64,000 bases of DNA from Candidatus Poribacteria bacterium (GTDB taxonomy: Bacteria; Poribacteria; WGA-4E; WGA-3G), in contig OZ242029.1 of NCBI GenBank assembly GCA_965205015.1, forward strand, positions 608,001-672,000. The letters are read 5' to 3'. Shown here piece by piece: positions 7,798-13,576 of the stretch. Numbering within the stretch: the stretch's first letter is position 1; each line of letters opens with the position of its first letter. The notes below the pieces were generated by a model that was given only the letters and a program-made list of their open reading frames with translations, searched no databases and was not told the origin of the DNA. The translations under genes and the position numbers were made by a program.

Positions 7798-8055
7798 TCT
7801 CCATTTGACGCCAAAGCCCTCTGGAAATCCTCTGGACTTTCTGCTAAGATTGCAGCGCGATGCAGCTGCTTAAGGCGTTGGGGATCCTCAATTGTTTCTA
7901 ATACCGGTCTGAAAGTACGCGCCACATCCGGCTGTAATCGAAGCTCCAATGCTTCAAGGATATCCTCACGCGCGCGTTCTTTCATACCTTGTTCAAGTCC
8001 CTGTTCAAGTCCCTGTTGGTGTGCTTCCGCTGTTGCTTTCTCCGTCCAGTATTCG

Positions 8056-8220
8056 GTGATAGCACCCACAACCTAAAGGTTGGGGCTTCGGTTTCATAGC
8101 AACTGCGGTTTTCTCTAAGAGTCCACCGTCTAACTGTCGCTCCACCTGCGGGCATTTCCCTGATACTCTGAAATAGGTGAGCATCAGGCACATCGTCAAG
8201 TGACGGCTATCCCTGCCCGC
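8056..8220 (-). ncRNA. Predicted TnpB omega/reRNA scaffold
   Basis: Spans the tnpB 3' end to the right end, as for known omegaRNAs. Stems GCGGGCA/TGCCCGC, CGTCA/TGACG, CCTGATGCTC/GAGTATCAGG, plus the RE hairpin. Confidence 0.6.
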
Positions 8221-9308
8221 AATATGTTTATCGCAGCGTTGATGTCCCTATCGTGGTGTGAACCACAGTCAGGACACGTCCACTGCCTATCAGAGAGTGA
8301 AAGATTTTCGTTTTTGTAGCCACAATCGGAACACGGTTTGGTTGTCGCAGTCCATTGACCGACCTGTTTCAAAAGACGCTTATGTTTGCTACACTTATAC
8401 TTCAATATCTCAACAAACTGGTAGAAAGCAAGGTCGGAGACTTTGCGTCCCCAAAGCCGTTTCATGCCATCAAGGTTCAAGGTCTCAATGGCAATAGTAT
8501 CAAAACGCTTACAAAGTTCAGAGGCAAGCTGCCAATGAAAGTCTTTGCGTTGATTAGAAACTTTACGGTGAAGTCGTGCCAATGCTCTGACACACCGCCA
8601 CCAGCCGTTAGAACCTTTCTGTTTACGGCTCAAGTCTTTGTTGAGTGCGCGAAGTTTCTTCAAGGAGTGTTTCAAAGGTTGGCGGTGTTGCTTCTTCTCA
8701 CCCGTGCTCAGGGTCAAGTAAGCGTCTTTCATGCCGAAGTCTGCCCCAACGCTTTCACCTGTTGTCGGCAGACGTTTCATATCCGTGTCGTCTGTAGTTA
8801 TGCAAAGCCAATAGTCACCGCAGGCATCACGCTTTATCGTGATATGCCGAATACAACCGTGCCACTGCCGGTGTTTGTGAAAAGTATAAGGCACGCGGTC
8901 AAAACGCCATTTACCTTTTTCCCATTTCCGGAAGGATATTGTAACTCGGTTGTCTTTGAGTTTCCAACCGGCGGGTCCCGGAAAGGTAATAGACTTAAAC
9001 TTGTTCCTACGTTTGATTTTCGGTCTACCGCCTATTTTGTCGAAGAACCGCTCATATGCATTATCAATACGCATCAACTCTTGTTGAACCGCTTGGCTCG
9101 GCAGGGACCTCCAATGCGGGTGCGTCGTCCGCTTGAGTTCTCTAAAGTGGTGATCCATAGCGTTATAGTTCGCATATGGCAGCCCGTCTTTATATCGCTG
9201 ACGGTGCCACTTATGGAAGTATTCATGCACTTGCCACATATCATCAAGCAGATTGCCGATGCGAATACAATTCGATTGGTGACCGAACGGATATTTATAG
9301 GTTTTCAT
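8196..9308 (-). CDS. tnpB: RNA-guided endonuclease TnpB
   Basis: RuvC D (GADFG), E (AIETL), D (DRDINAAINI); Zn finger CSDC/CPDC. Confidence 0.95.
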   Translation of the reverse strand: MKTYKYPFGHQSNCIRIGNLLDDMWQVHEYFHKWHRQRYKDGLPYANYNAMDHHFRELKRTTHPHWRSLPSQAVQQELMRIDNAYERFFDKIGGRPKIKRRNKFKSITFPGPAGWKLKDNRVTISFRKWEKGKWRFDRVPYTFHKHRQWHGCIRHITIKRDACGDYWLCITTDDTDMKRLPTTGESVGADFGMKDAYLTLSTGEKKQHRQPLKHSLKKLRALNKDLSRKQKGSNGWWRCVRALARLHRKVSNQRKDFHWQLASELCKRFDTIAIETLNLDGMKRLWGRKVSDLAFYQFVEILKYKCSKHKRLLKQVGQWTATTKPCSDCGYKNENLSLSDRQWTCPDCGSHHDRDINAAINILRAGIAVT

Positions 9309-9401
9309 GGTCTATCAAGTATCAAGTCTTTAACCCCTTGTTAGTGGGTAGGCAGGTACATTACCAAGCGGTAATGCTAACAATACCTGCCAACTTGATA
9401 T
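9305..9401 (-). promoter_or_regulatory. Structured 5' leader RNA plus 6-aa uORF coupled to tnpB (copy A)
   Basis: ATATCAAGTTGGCAGGTA TTGTTAG CATTAC..GTAATG TACCTGCC TACCC ACTAACAA GGGGT...TTG ATA CTT GAT AGA CCA TGA; the stop overlaps the tnpB ATG (ATGA). Covaries with copies B and C. Confidence 0.75.
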
Positions 9402-9406
9402 TACTA

Positions 9407-9435
9407 ATTATACCACAATTTTAGGTGAAAGTCAA
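9407..9435 (-). promoter_or_regulatory. Sigma70-type promoter of tnpB
   Basis: TTGACT-17 nt-TATAAT with extended TG. Confidence 0.8.
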
Positions 9436-9541
9436 ATTAAAATGAGGCTATCAACCCTTATGCCGTCTACATCCCCTACCTAAAGGCAGGGGTCTTGACG
9501 GAAGATTGATAATATTAGATTGCTGCACGGTTTTCTCCAGT

Positions 9542-9584
9542 ATGCTGCGAATTACAGCGAAATGCTGCGAATTATAGCGAAATG
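9542..9584. repeat. 20-bp tandem duplication
   Basis: ATGCTGCGAATTACAGCGAA / ATGCTGCGAATTATAGCGAA. Confidence 0.8.
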
Positions 9585-9665
9585 TGTCATCTTTTCAGTT
9601 TTTTGTAGGTTTCCTTTAGCAATTCGGCTGTGCGTTTGTGAAATAGGCCTCAGGTTGTGTCCGAA

Positions 9666-9718
9666 TGTGACGTTTTAAACGTCACAATTACGGCAATTCG
9701 GACGTTTTAAACGTCACA
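9666..9718. promoter_or_regulatory. Pair of palindromic sites, 32 bp apart
   Basis: TGTGACGTTT-T-AAACGTCACA (9666-9686) and GACGTTTTAAACGTCACA (9701-9718). Confidence 0.5.
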
Positions 9719-9906
9719 GTGACGTGCGGAAGTCAAGTGGGACGGGAAAAGTGACGTTTTTTCGGCATTTTTTTCTCCGCGGGTTTTCCGTCGGCTTCGG
9801 TTATCGGGGTATTCCGGAATATTGTTGTTATCAATGGACAGAGGAGCTACCCGTTTTTCGCAGCTTCGCACGGGAGTCCTCTCCTTTGAGAAAACGTTAT
9901 ATATAC

Positions 9907-9935
9907 ATTATACGATTTCAAACAATATGGGTCAA
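9907..9935 (-). promoter_or_regulatory. Sigma70-type promoter facing the RpnS-like gene
   Basis: TTGACC-17 nt-TATAAT. Confidence 0.65.
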
Positions 9936-10149
9936 GTTAATTTGGAGTAAGTATATCTGATATTTACCACAGTTATCATGAAGTCAATGATACTACAGAG
10001 ATAGCAGGTATCGCCAATATTCTATTAGCGAAAACTGAATGGCTCTGGCTAGACAGTGTGGGCATTCTTAAAAGCAAGATGTGAAAAATAACGAGGAAGA
10101 TGATTGGTAGAACTGCGCCTATTTAGATTGAAACCTTCCACATTTTTCC

Positions 10150-10178
10150 TTGAAAAAAAGCCCAAAAACCGCTATACT
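10150..10178 (+). promoter_or_regulatory. Sigma70-type promoter (copy B unit)
   Basis: TTGAAA-17 nt-TATACT; equivalent site at 12714-12741 has a 16-nt spacer and TG. Confidence 0.7.
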
Positions 10179-10182
10179 CTCT

Positions 10183-10313
10183 ATATCACGTTGGCAGACA
10201 TAATCGGCGTTACCGCCCCCTGCCCAGTAACGGGTGGGGACCCCGGTGACGTGTCTGCCTCCCACCGATTAGGGGATAAAAGCGTGAGCGTGAGCGTCAA
10301 CAGATACTTTTGA
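10183..10313 (+). promoter_or_regulatory. Structured 5' leader RNA plus uORF MSVSVNRYF (copy B)
   Basis: Pairings TCACGTT/AGCGTGA, GGCAGACA/TGTCTGCC, TAATCGG/CCGATTA, CGTTAC/GTAACG, TCCC/GGGA. GTG 10284 to TGA 10313 overlaps TTG 10310. Confidence 0.75.
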
Positions 10314-10447
10314 AAGACAATCGTGAAAGCGAACAGAATAGATCCTCTATGTTCACAGTCCGAGACGCTGAAAGCGCGATGATCGCGTTGACAAGTTTCT
10401 CGATTGCTGTTATCGCTGGAGTCTTTTTATACAATCTTCTCATCGTA

Positions 10448-11856
10448 CTAAAGTTTGGACAATATTGTAAGTTTCAAGCTGCTTTGTCGAAAGGTAGCGT
10501 GGTATCGTGTTCAGATATGGGATGAATATTCTGTGAGTTGGTCTCTTCTTGGGAACTCGCAGAATATTCCAACGCTCTGAGGTGCGACTGTAAATAAGCG
10601 ACCCGTAACCCTTGGGTCAAGTGCTTCGGATGATACCAATGAATCCCGAGATGCTCGCAGACCTCTTTGACGCTCACGCGATCCGAGGGATACCGAGACC
10701 CAAACTTCAAGAAGACCAACTTCGTCAGAGACGCTGCGACGAAACTCAGCTGCACGAAGCGATTGATGCTTTTGCGAGACTTGACCCGATAGGCATCAAA
10801 TCCGAAATGCTGCTTGACATCTCGAAACGCTGTTTCTATCTGCCACCTCTGCCGGTAGTATTCAACGATCTTCGGGAGCTCCAAGGTCATATCTGTTGTA
10901 AAGACACAGAAATACCGATACGGTTTTGAGGGTTTGACTCGGGTGCGTATCACGACGAGTCGGACGTCTGTCGGACACATTTTCGTCCGAACGACCTCTG
11001 AGGCGACCTGATACGTTTTTTCCAGGATGCAAACGTCTTGATACCGTAAGCGTTGGATGTTCAAACGGTCTCCATATTTCTTCGGACGCCCGCGCTGGGG
11101 GCGCTTCGGACGTTTCGGTAAACGATAAAACACCGCATTTGACTTCGCACGACACAACAGATGATGTCCGAGTTCCAAGAGCATTTCAAAGACTTTTCGG
11201 CGGCAGAACCCTCTATCAAAGAGGATCAACCCCCGGGGGAGCTTTGAACAGATACGTTTCAACACCGCATCACCTTTGTCCCGGAGCGTCTGAGGTGCAA
11301 TGAGTTTCACCCAGACCGGAAACAGCAACCAATCTGCCGCTGTCTCGCAGAGTAAACCTAATGCCCCAAACTCGTGTCCGAAGTGAAACTTTGATTGATT
11401 CACGCGATGTTTACCGTGATAACTGAAGTTGCGGAAAAAATGTAAACCCCATTGGGTTTTACCCGTCTTCAAGGCTTTGGTGGCATCATAGACGTAAACC
11501 CAGTCGGCAAACACGCCCTGGAGCCTTTTCATCAGGCACGCAGCAACCGCATCGGTATCCCATTTGCCCCGGGAAAGAAACTTCGGAAACGACCAATAGC
11601 GTGTCGCGGATCCACTCGACTGATACAGGTGCGTCAGGCTGCCTCCAGGCGGTTGAGTCATAAACCCAAAAATAAATGCTTGAAAAAGCGCAAAGTTTTG
11701 GGAGTTGAACAAATGACGAAAATCCGATACAATACTTTCTAAGTGGAGAAGCAGGGGCATTTTTGCCTTCCTTTCAAAACAGTGGTATGTTTATGAAAGG
11801 ATACCTGCTTTTCTGCTTTCAAACATCTTAATTCTTTAAAATTGTCCAAACTTTAG
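10448..11856 (-). mobile_element. IS4/IS701-like insertion sequence (1409 bp)
   Basis: 16-bp perfect TIR CTAAAGTTTGGACAAT; 8-bp TSD TCATCGTA at 10440-10447 and 11857-11864. Confidence 0.95.
10474..11760 (-). CDS. DDE transposase (IS4/IS701 superfamily)
   Basis: YDAT, FDRGF, YRQRWQIETAFRDVKQ (YREK-type motif). Confidence 0.92.
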   Translation of the reverse strand: MPLLLHLESIVSDFRHLFNSQNFALFQAFIFGFMTQPPGGSLTHLYQSSGSATRYWSFPKFLSRGKWDTDAVAACLMKRLQGVFADWVYVYDATKALKTGKTQWGLHFFRNFSYHGKHRVNQSKFHFGHEFGALGLLCETAADWLLFPVWVKLIAPQTLRDKGDAVLKRICSKLPRGLILFDRGFCRRKVFEMLLELGHHLLCRAKSNAVFYRLPKRPKRPQRGRPKKYGDRLNIQRLRYQDVCILEKTYQVASEVVRTKMCPTDVRLVVIRTRVKPSKPYRYFCVFTTDMTLELPKIVEYYRQRWQIETAFRDVKQHFGFDAYRVKSRKSINRFVQLSFVAASLTKLVFLKFGSRYPSDRVSVKEVCEHLGIHWYHPKHLTQGLRVAYLQSHLRALEYSASSQEETNSQNIHPISEHDTTLPFDKAA

Positions 11857-12290
11857 TCATCGTAGGGAATAGCACCTTAAAATCCGTCAGTGTTGTGCTT
11901 GGTAATGTTTCAAACATTCTGTCAGCAGCAACACTGCTGACGATACTTGAAGAAGGAATCAGTCTCATGTTTTACCGAATCAGACTCGCTCTCAAAGAAG
12001 AAAGCGAAATCAAAGAACAGGGTCGCCAAGAAGCTTACCAAGAAGTGTCCGACTGGAACCGTCGCCGTCTTGAGGCAGAAGCCCGTGGCGAAACTTTTAC
12101 AGAGCCACCGCCGGGACACGATTCCCTGAAACCCAGAAAGAAAAAACGTTTCATCTTTTTCTGATGCTTTCAGAGTCTTGAAGCCGAAGCCCCTAAACGT
12201 AGCCGAACGGTTATCGCTTGAGCATTCTAACGTTGGAACTCAATTCAGCGAAAGACAAGTATTGTAAATCCACTGGAGATTTAGGTATTG

Positions 12291-12386
12291 ATGTTCTGGT
12301 TAATCGAATTTTTAGAAGCAAAAGATAACGCAATAATAGCATTTTCCGCTCTGATAACAGCAATTGCCACTGGTGTTCTCGCTGTT
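12291..12386 (+). pseudogene. 5' fragment of a membrane-anchored hypothetical gene, cut by an IS3 end
   Basis: MFWLIEFLEAKDNAIIAFSALITAIATGVLAV runs directly into the TG terminus of the IS3 remnant. Confidence 0.5.
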
Positions 12387-12600
12387 TGTAGTGCATACGC
12401 TTATTTAGACCACAATTTCGCAAAGTTAAGAGAAGGTTCGTTTCCCTTGAAATTCCATAGGCGTCAAAGACCCTAACGCCGAATGCGGGCGTTTCTGATT
12501 ATAGACGTGTGTGATAAAATGCCCAATACGGGCTCTCGCTTCGTAGATGTCCTCAGAGTCGTTGAGGTGAACTTCTTCCTCCTTGAGGGTTCTGATAAAT
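12387..12600 (-). mobile_element. IS3-family right-end remnant
   Basis: Minus strand encodes FIRTLKEEEVHLNDSEDIYEARARIGHFITHVYNQKRPHSALG...* then ...GCGTATGCACTACA terminus; homologous to the 3' end of the 15466-16283 remnant. Confidence 0.85.
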
Positions 12601-12604
12601 TCCT

Positions 12605-13110
12605 AGGACTGTGTAGGCATTCTCAAAAGCAAGATATGAAAAATGTGAAAAATAACGAGGAAGATGATTAGTAGAACTGCGCCTGTTTAGATTGAAATCT
12701 TCCACATTTTTCCTTGAAAAAAGCCCAAAAACTGTTATACTATTTATATCATGTTGGCAGACATAATCGGCGTTACCGCCCCTTCCCAGTAACGGGTGGG
12801 GACCCCGGTGACGTGTCTGCCTCCCATCGATTAGGGGATAAAAGCGTGAGAGTCAACAGATACTTTTGAAAGACAACCGCGAAAGCGAACAGAACAGATA
12901 TTCACTATTCACAGTCCGAGATGCCGAGCATGCGATGTTTGTATTTTCAGTCTTCGCAGTTGCTATTGTTGTCGGAATTTTCTCGTTTGAATTACTGATT
13001 AGAGGTAGTGGTATTTTGAAGTCTCTTGGTGTTGTACTTGGCAATGTCTCAAGTGTTTTGTCAGGATCAACACTGCTAACAATCTTTGAAGAAGGAATTA
13101 ATCTTATGTT
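12605..13110 (+). repeat. Diverged duplicate of 10050-10447 plus 11865-11970 (promoter, leader, N-terminal coding part)
   Basis: Near-identical blocks such as AAATAACGAGGAAGATGATT and TTCCACATTTTTCCTTGAAAAAA, and the leader RNA. Confidence 0.9.
12746..12869 (+). promoter_or_regulatory. Structured 5' leader RNA plus uORF MRVNRYF (copy C)
   Basis: Same helices as copy B with G-U-compatible changes (TCATGTT, TCGATTA); a 6-nt indel keeps the uORF frame; TGA overlaps TTG 12866. Confidence 0.75.
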
Positions 13111-13327
13111 TTTCCGTCGTGCCCGAGAAGAACGCGCAAAACTGAAAGAAGAACGCGAAGCAGTTGAAGCAGCACGCGCATCACTTGAAAAAGAAACGAA
13201 ACAGTTAGAAGAACTCAAAGCAGAGTTAAGTCAAGCGGCTTCTAACGTAGGTACCGGAACATCCAAAGCAGGTAACGTTGAATCTGATACAAAACCGCCG
13301 GAACAGTCCACAAAGCCTAAGAATTAG
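12866..13327 (+). CDS. Two-TM membrane protein paralog 2 with coiled-coil tail (intact)
   Basis: Two hydrophobic segments, EEGINLMF, then a charged helical tail. Confidence 0.8.
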   Translation: MKDNRESEQNRYSLFTVRDAEHAMFVFSVFAVAIVVGIFSFELLIRGSGILKSLGVVLGNVSSVLSGSTLLTIFEEGINLMFFRRAREERAKLKEEREAVEAARASLEKETKQLEELKAELSQAASNVGTGTSKAGNVESDTKPPEQSTKPKN

Positions 13328-13359
13328 TCCGTTTTTTTGAATGCCAGGAGACGTATATC

Positions 13360-13576
13360 GTGCCGACTGATGAACTTTATGAATTAATGCAGCGTGGTTT
13401 CGATCACATACAGAGGCAGTTAGACGAAATCAAAGAGACACTTAAGAGTATTGACGAACACTTGCACAAGGTTGAGACAGATCAAAGGCAGATGTCTCGC
13501 AATGAAAGACTGGTTTGTTTTTGCCTGTGCTATTGATGCTTTAATAGTATCAATCATAACTGAAGTGCATAAATAG
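13360..13576 (+). pseudogene. Small coiled-coil protein with probably frameshifted C-terminal TM anchor
   Basis: AGGAG then GTG: MPTDELYELMQRGFDHIQRQLDEIKETLKSIDEHLHKVETD, stop at 13536. An alternate frame continues MKDWFVFACAIDALIVSIITEVHK*. Confidence 0.5.

What the first reader, a model, noticed from the sequence alone, without database searches (positions are those of the whole stretch)
9305..12869. Three-copy pseudoknotted leader RNA plus coupled uORF shared by tnpB and two membrane-protein genes
Seen: the same architecture begins 4-5 nt after a -10 box at 9401-9305(-), 10183-10313(+) and 12746-12869(+). The tnpB copy differs in sequence from the other two, yet every helix is kept by compensatory changes. 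P0: TCAAGTT/GACTTGA vs TCACGTT/AGCGTGA (covers the uORF start codon). P1: GGCAGGTA/TACCTGCC vs GGCAGACA/TGTCTGCC. P2: CATTAC/GTAATG vs CGTTAC/GTAACG. P3: ACCC/GGGT vs TCCC/GGGA (hides the AGGGG SD). A 7-bp pseudoknot between the P1 interior and the P3 loop: TTGTTAG/CTAACAA vs TAATCGG/CCGATTA. In all three, AGGGG lies exactly 8 nt before a TTG/GTG uORF (MILDRP, MSVSVNRYF, MRVNRYF) whose TGA overlaps the main start (ATGA/TTGA), and a 6-nt indel preserves the frame. Established analogies: mok-hok coupling and repY/repZ pseudoknot control in IncI plasmids. Inference: a portable translational lock or switch for potentially harmful genes. I do not recognise it as a named RNA family.
Basis: partly seen in the sequence, partly recalled or inferred. 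Interest (0 to 1): 0.88.

Follow-up and report, generated by a model that had tools for sequence, protein, structure and literature searches.

The report
Pseudoknotted leader RNA of Poribacteria tnpB genes
The three look-alike stretches are copies of a previously uncatalogued, tightly folded RNA leader that sits in front of hundreds of transposon tnpB genes, and a few ordinary genes, in sponge-associated Poribacteria, and probably controls how these genes are translated.

Summary
All three copies (9401-9305 -, 10183-10313 +, 12746-12869 +) start about 5 nt after a promoter-like -10 box and share helices P0, P1, P2, P3 and a 7-bp bulge-loop pseudoknot. No Rfam 15 family matches. It is a large family. 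A motif scan found 109 true copies, almost all in Candidatus Poribacteria MAGs. A covariance model hit 78 of 150 genomes of that phylum and 0 of 302 in two other phyla. Covariation is very strong: 96.9% of cells paired, 21 of 34 pairs changed on both sides, 0 of 500 shuffles as good. Of 113 long downstream ORFs, 110 are TnpB, some only about 25% identical to each other. The leader lies inside IS200/IS605-type elements, between the left-end hairpin/promoter and tnpB (window IS 8055-9507). A few host genes also carry it. The coupled uORF is not conserved (36 of 105), and AGGGG is replaced in divergent classes. One new feature: the 3' strand of P0 is duplicated in tandem just before the start codon, and both copies covary with the 5' strand. 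The mechanism, probably translational gating, is inferred only.

The parts
8055..9507 (-). IS200/IS605-family, tnpB-only insertion sequence (1453 bp) that contains leader copy 1
   Evidence: Contigs in runs X1-X4 join 8054 to 9508 and skip 1453 bases, i.e. the empty site. Related copies align from about -112/-140 to +1305/+1350 relative to TTGGCAG.
9478..9497 (-). Left-end subterminal imperfect palindrome (hairpin) of the IS. A similar one lies at the right end, about 8060-8084.
   Evidence: Read from the sequence. This is the usual IS200/IS605 end architecture (established knowledge, recalled).
9407..9435 (-). Promoter-like site TTGACT-17-TATAAT with TG extension, 5-6 nt before the leader
   Evidence: 11 of 12 matches. 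At least 67 of 104 family members have both hexamers at 4/6 or better, and the modal distance from the -10 end to TTGGCAG is 12 nt.
9309..9401 (-). Leader copy 1 (tnpB). P0 5' 9400-9394; P1 9391-9384 with 9358-9351; pseudoknot strand a 9383-9377 with strand b 9344-9338; P2 9376-9370 with 9365-9359; P3 9349-9346 with 9336-9333; P0 3' copy 1 9326-9319; P0 3' copy 2 9319-9313; ATG 9308.
   Evidence: covariance model R1 scores 109.4 bits.
8196..9308 (-). tnpB (370 aa)
   Evidence: Pfam OrfB_IS605 2.3e-20 and Cas12f1-like TNB 7.5e-22.
10150..10178 (+). Promoter-like site TTGAAA-17-TATACT before leader copy 2
   Evidence: 10 of 12 matches.
10184..10313 (+). Leader copy 2 with a long P2 insert. P0 5' 10184-10190; P1 10193-10200 with 10252-10259; pseudoknot 10201-10207 with 10265-10271; P0 3' copies 10282-10287 and 10288-10293; uORF 10284-10313.
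   Evidence: R1 scores 71.3 bits.
10310..10525 (+). 5' part of the membrane/coiled-coil gene. It is interrupted by the IS at 10448-11856 and continues at 11895-12164.
   Evidence: no Pfam family; paralogue of 12866-13327 (cluster).
12714..12741 (+). Promoter-like site TTGAAA-16-TATACT (TG) before leader copy 3
12747..12869 (+). Leader copy 3. It has the same fold as copy 2, but a 6-nt deletion leaves only one intact copy of the P0 3' strand. uORF 12846-12869.
   Evidence: R1 scores 69.9 bits.
12866..13327 (+). Intact membrane/coiled-coil gene (153 aa, TTG start as listed)
   Evidence: only sub-threshold coiled-coil Pfam hits. Orthologues with the same leader occur in L020, L050, L054 and L105.

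Best explanation
The three stretches are members of a large, uncatalogued family of cis-acting 5'-leader RNAs of Candidatus Poribacteria. The RNA starts a few nucleotides after its own sigma-70-type promoter. Its first about 7 nt (P0 5' strand) close a three-way junction. One arm is a long P1-P2 hairpin carrying a 7-nt bulge. The other arm is a short hairpin, P3, whose loop pairs with that bulge to form the pseudoknot. The 3' strand of P0 occurs twice in tandem and ends 4-9 nt before a start codon that has no Shine-Dalgarno sequence of its own. Most copies lie inside tnpB-only IS200/IS605 elements, between the left-end hairpin and tnpB. Unrelated TnpB lineages and a few host genes have acquired the same module. 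Shown here: the fold, its strand, its position, its spread and its gene partners. Inferred: the compact domain controls translation initiation, and probably also 5'-end stability. It would do so by toggling the 5' strand between the two tandem complements. Paired to the distal copy, the initiation region is occluded. Paired to the proximal copy, it is left single-stranded. My odds: real structured cis-leader RNA family about 0.9; translational gating through the bistable P0 helix about 0.4-0.5.
For: Fold and covariation: 105 distinct copies, 96.9% of cells paired against 83.2% when shuffled; 21 of 34 pairs changed on both sides; 0 of 500 shuffles reach the observed values; sliding the partners drops pairing to 25-44%. 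The four central pseudoknot pairs each use all four Watson-Crick types. P3 end pair: A..T in 68 and T..A in 32 of 105. Second P0 copy: 89.8% paired, with the same covariation. The two states are close in energy: median difference -2.7 kcal/mol, and -28.9 against -29.1 for the window's tnpB copy. Sense-strand specificity: frequent G-U pairs, for example 33:67 UG in 26 and 30:73 UG in 17. Divergent classes keep the architecture, including the tandem P0 3' strand, with entirely different letters. Position: a promoter lies at fixed distance, and GGGG to ATG is mostly 25 nt, range 24-28. No SD-like motif precedes the tnpB ATG, whereas AGGA precedes 11 of 39 other ORFs against 4% background. Partners: 143 of 179 leaders are followed by an ORF of the TnpB cluster, and 110 of 113 long ORFs match OrfB_IS605. 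In genome G001, 33 of the 42 listed tnpB genes have the leader, and the 5 that follow a tnpA gene do not. Module exchange: only the -10/leader segment aligns between ISs whose TnpBs are about 25% identical. RNA-library contigs cover the leader and tnpB (contigs cannot prove transcription).
Against: There is no experimental or TSS evidence. The contigs cannot show 5' ends and may include DNA. A 7-bp helix is easily melted by a ribosome, so occlusion may be weak. On the nearest-neighbour model the proximal pairing is favoured in 62% of copies, so the distal pairing might rarely form. Leader copy 3 in the window has lost the second P0 copy, yet its gene looks intact. In the membrane-gene class the listed start lies 19 nt beyond the second copy, so simple occlusion fits less well there. 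P1 letters are highly conserved within the main class, which hints at sequence-specific recognition that the gating model does not explain. The alignment behind the statistics was pattern-selected.
Confidence: 0.5

Rival explanations
1. The fold is mainly a 5'-end protective, nuclease-resistant cap for the mRNA. The first nucleotides of the transcript are buried in P0. The tandem complement lets the end stay paired (to copy 1) while a ribosome occupies the initiation region. There is no regulated switching.
For: P0 uses the predicted first about 7 nt of the transcript. The domain is a compact pseudoknot. No universally conserved junction letters survive across classes, which fits a purely structural role. 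Both P0 copies are kept.
Against: It does not explain why the start codon lacks an SD and sits at a fixed 4-9 nt from copy 2. It also does not explain the strong conservation of P1 letters within classes. Nothing here measures stability.
Confidence: 0.2
2. It is an aptamer-type sensor (riboswitch or protein/sRNA-binding operator). Ligand or factor binding at the three-way junction fixes P0 on copy 1 and frees the initiation region.
For: A three-way junction with a tertiary bulge-loop contact and two mutually exclusive closing helices is typical riboswitch anatomy (established knowledge). P1 and the junction letters (TT, TAAAG) are conserved in the main class. The module serves unrelated genes.
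Against: Divergent classes change P1, P3 and the junction letters completely, leaving almost no conserved unpaired nucleotides for a pocket. The downstream genes give no metabolic clue. No Rfam aptamer matches.
Confidence: 0.15
3. One reading: an SD (AGGGG) hidden in P3 drives a short uORF whose termination at ATGA/TTGA couples translation into the main gene.
For: This is true for all three window copies and for 36 of 105 family members. GTG, TTG or CTG fills the start position in 89 of 105. All six membrane-gene copies keep a uORF ending in TTGA, and there the main start is too far from P0 for direct occlusion.
Against: 32 of 105 copies have no ATG/GTG/TTG at that place, and 21 of 105 uORFs run on out of frame for 15 or more codons. 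The 'start' covaries as part of P0. GGGG is replaced in divergent classes. GGGG is not used before other genes of the window (0 of 39).
Confidence: 0.1
4. It is a single-stranded-DNA signal of the transposon (a TnpA binding or cleavage site), or an RNA bound by TnpB (omega-RNA-like or autoregulatory).
For: It lies inside IS200/IS605 elements, which use folded ssDNA ends and guide RNAs (established knowledge; abstracts listed). Y1 transposase genes are present in the same genomes, with 5-13 matches each.
Against: The true end hairpins lie elsewhere (9478-9497 and about 8060-8084). The leader keeps a fixed distance to a promoter and to the ATG. It also occurs before host genes that have no IS. 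It is shared by TnpBs about 25% identical. The pseudoknot 6-mers have no third partner anywhere in the IS (75 copies). Omega-RNAs lie 3' of tnpB (passage read).
Confidence: 0.05

Closest known systems
IS200 tnpA 5'-UTR stem-loop that sequesters the ribosome-binding site (Salmonella; recalled, not checked in a paper here)
   Same: It is a 5' leader inside an IS200/IS605-family element that folds over the initiation region and is thought to keep expression of the element's gene low.
   Different: The IS200 leader is a simple hairpin over a real SD, before tnpA. Here there is a three-way junction with a pseudoknot, a tandem-duplicated closing strand and no SD, before tnpB and some host genes. There is no sequence relation and no Rfam match.
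IncI-alpha/IncB repY-repZ (repB-repA) pseudoknot control (recalled)
   Same: A pseudoknot in a leader next to a short leader ORF whose stop overlaps the main start.
   Different: In the plasmids the pseudoknot's 3' strand abuts the main RBS, its formation needs leader-peptide translation, and an antisense RNA blocks it. Here the 3' strand lies 26-32 nt before the ATG, the uORF is present in only 36 of 105 copies, and no antisense promoter was seen by consensus scan.
hok/mok/sok type I toxin-antitoxin leader (recalled)
   Same: An overlapping upstream reading frame and folded mRNA in front of a small membrane protein, as in the window's two membrane-gene copies.
   Different: No Sok-like antisense gene was found and there is no 5'-3' fold-back of a full-length mRNA. 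Most partners are 370-430-aa TnpB nucleases, not toxins. The uORF is not conserved.
TnpB omega-RNA / reRNA and the Rfam IS605-orfB motifs (family names recalled; omega-RNA position from the passage and the abstracts listed)
   Same: A structured, pseudoknot-containing RNA encoded by the same transposon family.
   Different: Omega-RNA overlaps the 3' end of tnpB and the right end, and it carries a guide. This element is 5' of tnpB, has its own promoter and has no variable flank-derived guide. No Rfam family matches.
Phage T4 gene 32 mRNA 5' pseudoknot operator (recalled)
   Same: A pseudoknot at the very 5' end of an mRNA, followed by a short unstructured stretch to the start codon, used for translational control.
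   Different: The T4 element is an H-type knot that nucleates cooperative binding of its own product. Here the partners are unrelated proteins, and the knot is a bulge-loop contact inside a closed three-way junction.

Membership tests
Any Rfam 15 family (4227 models) | Covariance-model score at or above the gathering threshold, or at least E <= 10 | tested here: not met
   0 matches at gathering over the whole window. Only 4 chance-level hits, none on the leaders, at E <= 10 in 9200-13000. 0 matches in 18 further loci, 142.5 kb, that hold leaders.
IS200/IS605 transposon end (LE/RE) ssDNA hairpin | Subterminal imperfect palindrome within a few tens of nt of the element's boundary | tested here: not met
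   The boundaries are 8055 and 9507. The end palindromes lie at 9478-9497 and about 8060-8084. The leader starts about 106 nt inside the left end, behind a promoter, and also occurs without any IS.
TnpB omega-RNA | Overlaps the 3' end of tnpB and the right end, with a guide taken from the flank | tested here: not met
   The leader is 5' of tnpB. Its variable 6-mers pair with each other and have no other partner within the IS.
mok-hok type coupling | Conserved upstream ORF overlapping the main start and needed for its translation | tested here: not met
   Present in 36 of 105; 32 of 105 lack a start; 21 of 105 run on. Whether the main gene needs it could not be tested.
mok-hok type coupling | Cis-encoded antisense RNA (Sok) against the leader | tested here: inconclusive
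   The consensus scan shows no opposite-strand promoter-like site within the three leaders. A consensus scan cannot exclude one, and no stranded reads were available.
IncI-alpha repY/repZ pseudoknot control | The pseudoknot's 3' strand lies directly upstream of the main RBS and is unmasked by leader-peptide translation | tested here: not met
   The 3' strand lies 26-32 nt before the ATG, inside the P3 loop and upstream of the uORF start. The uORF is not conserved.
Riboswitch (generic) | Conserved unpaired nucleotides forming a ligand pocket, plus an alternative-pairing expression platform | tested here: inconclusive
   The alternative pairing is met. The junction letters are conserved in the main class but not across divergent classes. 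Ligand binding cannot be tested with these tools.
Structured cis-regulatory 5' leader (generic kind) | Same strand as the downstream gene and at a fixed distance from it, transcribed from an upstream promoter, with helices supported by covariation | tested here: met
   The transcription start itself is predicted, not mapped.

The most novel reading that the evidence does not exclude
The element is a new class of bistable RNA device. A pseudoknot-locked three-way junction has a 5'-terminal strand that slides between two tandem complements placed exactly where a Shine-Dalgarno helix would sit. This would give SD-independent, switchable initiation, possibly in response to a host factor or ligand. 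At least four unrelated TnpB lineages and several host genes of Poribacteria would have captured it independently as a ready-made expression module.
Probability: 0.25. Interest if true: 0.85.

Novelty: new variant of a known kind. Interest (0 to 1): 0.72.

Why it matters
[quoted passage not shown] Study of their RNA has centred on the 3' omega-RNA. I found no description of a conserved 5' control element in Rfam 15 or in six full-text searches. This leader has more than a thousand copies in one uncultured phylum and textbook-quality covariation. It has an unusual design in which the closing strand is duplicated, and it appears to have been exchanged between transposon lineages and host genes. 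It therefore offers a concrete way to study how a host-specific RNA module tunes transposon nuclease expression. It is also a clean candidate for a new Rfam family, and it is small enough (about 95 nt) for direct structure probing and reporter tests.

Tried and rejected
1. Own-genome search: no genome is held for this window, so I used public genomes reached through loci.

2. tRNA-like or tmRNA-like reading: ARAGORN finds nothing in 7900-13400.

3. A third pairing partner for the hypervariable pseudoknot 6-mers elsewhere in the IS (guide- or target-like role): none in 75 full-length copies. The 6-mers occur only at their own two places.

4. Leader as LE hairpin or omega-RNA: rejected (see Membership tests).

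5. A contig joint '9324 to 9405, skips 80' in runs X1-X3 looked at first like a leader-less form. It shares its depth with a joint to 12448 in the same runs, so I read it as a paralogous copy in another context aligned in pieces, not as a deletion. Parts of the stretch without RNA-contig cover (9991-12343, apart from one bin) are not evidence of anything.

6. The four non-Poribacteria pattern hits (L026, L049, L108, L111) lack the complementarity, and their genomes give 0 model matches. I dropped them before building A2.

7. Literature: no paper holds 'Poribacteria' with 'tnpB', 'Poribacteria-1' or 'Poribacteria' with 'RNA motif'. The searches on tnpB/UTR/pseudoknot/IS605 listed nothing on a 5' leader. 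Passages of PMC10691335 mention only 3' UTRs. Passages of PMC5737381 do not mention Poribacteria or IS605 in the main text. Its motif list is in supplements, which are closed, so I could not check a 'Poribacteria-1' motif that I only recall by name. The Rfam scans argue that no catalogued motif equals this one.

Protein homology searches, structure prediction and complex prediction were not used, because the question concerns an RNA.

Full report
**What is in the window.**
- Minimum-free-energy folds recover P0, P1, P2 and P3 in all three, with z-scores of -3.8 to -4.0 against dinucleotide shuffles.
- A pattern made of the shared letters occurs once plus twice in the window and never in 100 shuffles.
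- Each copy begins 5-6 nt after a promoter-like -10 hexamer: TTGACT-17-TATAAT ending at 9407, TTGAAA-17-TATACT ending at 10178, and TTGAAA-16-TATACT ending at 12741.
- The gene after copy 1 is tnpB (Pfam OrfB_IS605 and Cas12f1-like TNB).
- The genes after copies 2 and 3 are paralogous membrane/coiled-coil proteins without a Pfam family. The first is split by a DDE insertion sequence.
- No Rfam 15 family matches, either at gathering threshold over the whole window or at E <= 10 around the finding.

**It is a large family.** No genome is held for the window. I therefore scanned one genome per prokaryotic species with a pattern of the conserved letters.
Of 117 matches, window included, 4 lack any complementarity and come from other phyla (L026, L049, L108, L111). 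The rest are in MAGs labelled Candidatus Poribacteria, or in unlabelled MAGs.
- A covariance model built from 105 distinct copies finds 22-41 matches in each of five Poribacteria genomes.
- It finds matches in 78 of 150 genomes sampled from that phylum. That is 150 listed plus 898 unlisted matches, with at most 26 candidates scored per genome.
- It finds none in 151 + 151 genomes sampled from two other phyla.
- The window itself most likely comes from a Poribacteria genome. Its IS is 96% identical to one in a Poribacteria MAG (L018).

**The fold is strongly supported.** On the 105-sequence alignment, 96.9% of cells form standard pairs, against 83.2% after shuffling. Of the 34 pairs, 21 show changes on both sides, and 0 of 500 shuffles reach any observed measure. 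Sliding the 3' partners by 1-3 columns lowers pairing to 25-44%.
- The four central pseudoknot pairs each use all four Watson-Crick types with 97-99% pairing. P2 behaves likewise.
- The P3 end pair is A..T in 68 copies and T..A in 32 of 105.
- Frequent G-U pairs place the structure on the sense strand.
- The pattern fixed TTGGCAG, CTGCCT, CCCA and GGGG, so their invariance means nothing. But low-scoring model hits and genomes with few copies show other classes. These keep the same architecture with different letters in P1 (for example GGAAACCAGCA with TGCTGGTTTCC), in P3 (ACCG/CGGT, ACCT/AGGT, TCC/GGA) and in P0.
- The topology is a three-way junction. P0 closes it. P1 stacks on P2 with a 7-nt bulge between them. 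P3 is a 3-4-bp hairpin whose loop pairs with that bulge.

The 3' strand of P0 is present twice in tandem, with a 7-nt period in tnpB leaders and a 6-nt period in the membrane-gene leaders.
- The 5' strand pairs with the second copy as well as with the first: 89.8% of cells, with the same four-type covariation at the variable position.
- Divergent classes with unrelated P0 letters also carry two copies.
- Nearest-neighbour energies of the two states are close. The median difference is -2.7 kcal/mol in favour of the proximal copy, and the values are -28.9 against -29.1 for the window's tnpB leader.
- The second copy ends 4-9 nt before the start codon. That is where an SD would lie, yet no SD-like motif is there. 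AGGA-type motifs precede 11 of 39 other long ORFs of the window, against 4% background, and GGGG precedes none.
- Window copy 3 has lost the second copy through the 6-nt deletion.

**Genomic setting.**
- Near-identical copies align from about -112/-140 to +1305/+1350 relative to TTGGCAG.
- Contigs of four metatranscriptome runs join 8054 to 9508, which is the empty site. The window's element is therefore 8055-9507, 1453 bp.
- It has the subterminal palindromes typical of IS200/IS605 ends at 9478-9497 and about 8060-8084. The leader is internal, behind the element's own promoter.
- Of 179 leaders examined, 143 are followed by an ORF of one BLAST-linked cluster.
- Of 113 distinct downstream ORFs of 300 aa or more, 110 match OrfB_IS605 and 107 match the TNB domain. 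Their identity to the window's TnpB ranges from 14% to 96% and falls into groups near 25, 36, 55 and 78%.
- In genome G001, 33 of the 42 listed tnpB matches have a leader upstream. The 5 that follow a Y1 tnpA gene have none, and 4 have neither. Ten further tnpB matches of that genome were not listed.
- Between elements whose TnpBs are about 25% identical, the only DNA similarity is the -10/leader segment. The module has therefore been exchanged, or it is far more constrained than the rest.
- Pseudoknot 'alleles' are distributed discordantly with overall IS similarity. One pair is 94% identical yet differs at 4 of 7 pseudoknot letters. The same allele also occurs in copies only 73-79% identical.

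**Non-tnpB partners.**
- The membrane/coiled-coil gene: 6 copies, including the two in the window.
- A signal-peptide coiled-coil protein with its own P1 class: 5 copies.
- A small GIY-YIG protein: 2 copies, one above the Pfam cut-off.
- One moeA, which has its own SD.
- One katG, behind a degenerate leader.
- The remaining leaders precede broken tnpB genes or run into contig ends.

**The uORF and the SD.** All three window copies have the uORFs described. Family-wide they are not conserved.
- 36 of 105 copies have TTG/GTG 8 nt after GGGG, six codons and a TGA within ATGA.
- 32 of 105 have no ATG/GTG/TTG at that position.
- 21 of 105 run on for 15 or more codons out of frame.
- The putative start is the covarying NTG of the P0 3' strand: GTG 36, TTG 33, CTG 20, others 16.

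The uORF may still matter in the membrane-gene class, where all six copies keep it and the listed start is 19 nt beyond P0. Those copies are too similar to each other to test this.

**Mechanism.**
- Shown: a sense-strand fold that begins at the predicted transcript start and ends at an SD-less start codon, with two alternative closing helices.
- Inferred: it gates translation initiation, and probably protects the 5' end, by toggling between the two P0 states.
- Rivals are a pure stability cap, a ligand- or factor-sensing aptamer, obligatory uORF coupling, and a DNA- or TnpB-level role. The last is the weakest (and the host-gene copies).
- RNA-library contigs cover the leader and tnpB at 99% identity, but contigs cannot prove transcription or show ends.

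**Comparison and novelty.** It works most like the translational leaders of other insertion sequences and plasmid replication genes, but it is a member of none. Rfam gives no match. The defining features of mok-hok, of repY/repZ, of the LE/RE hairpins and of the omega-RNA were tested and not met. Six full-text searches and passages of two papers gave no description of a 5' tnpB leader or of a Poribacteria RNA motif. I rate it a new variant of a known kind, namely a structured cis-acting leader, with interest 0.72.

Noticed in passing
window 10448-11856 (flanks 10440-10447 and 11857-11864): A 1409-bp DDE (IS4-like; Pfam DDE_Tnp_1/DDE_5) insertion sequence with 16-nt terminal inverted repeats and an 8-bp target duplication (TCATCGTA). 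It splits the first membrane/coiled-coil gene.
   Followed up: partly
window 10215-10244 and 12778-12806; also L001, L029, L045, L050, L054, L062, L081, L099: A nearly identical G+C-rich insert of about 26 nt extends P2 in 10 of 105 leaders, in both tnpB-type and membrane-gene-type classes. It may be an optional module or a sign of exchange between leaders.
   Followed up: partly
family-wide, e.g. L058 vs L067, L013 vs L047: Pseudoknot and P2 'alleles' are discordant with overall IS similarity. Copies 92-94% identical carry different, internally complementary alleles, while copies 73-79% identical share one allele. This suggests modular recombination or selection for distinct pairs. It remains unexplained.
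   Followed up: partly
window 9541-9590 and 9660-9725: Just outside the IS left end there is a 20-nt tandem repeat (two copies), followed by two copies of a palindrome built on GACGTTTTAAACGTC.
   Followed up: no
window, upstream of three long ORFs (list): Three ORFs of 200 aa or more share a similar 20-nt upstream sequence (AACYGAYAACCA...AAAAA). This suggests another repeated gene or leader family in the window.
   Followed up: no
window 8054/9508: Contigs in four metatranscriptome runs carry the empty site without the 1453-bp IS. The element is therefore polymorphic among close relatives.
   Followed up: partly
G046 and G127 loci L158-L167: In a divergent leader class an ATG in the junction after P3 is in frame with the annotated tnpB ATG. 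TnpB may start upstream in that class.
   Followed up: no
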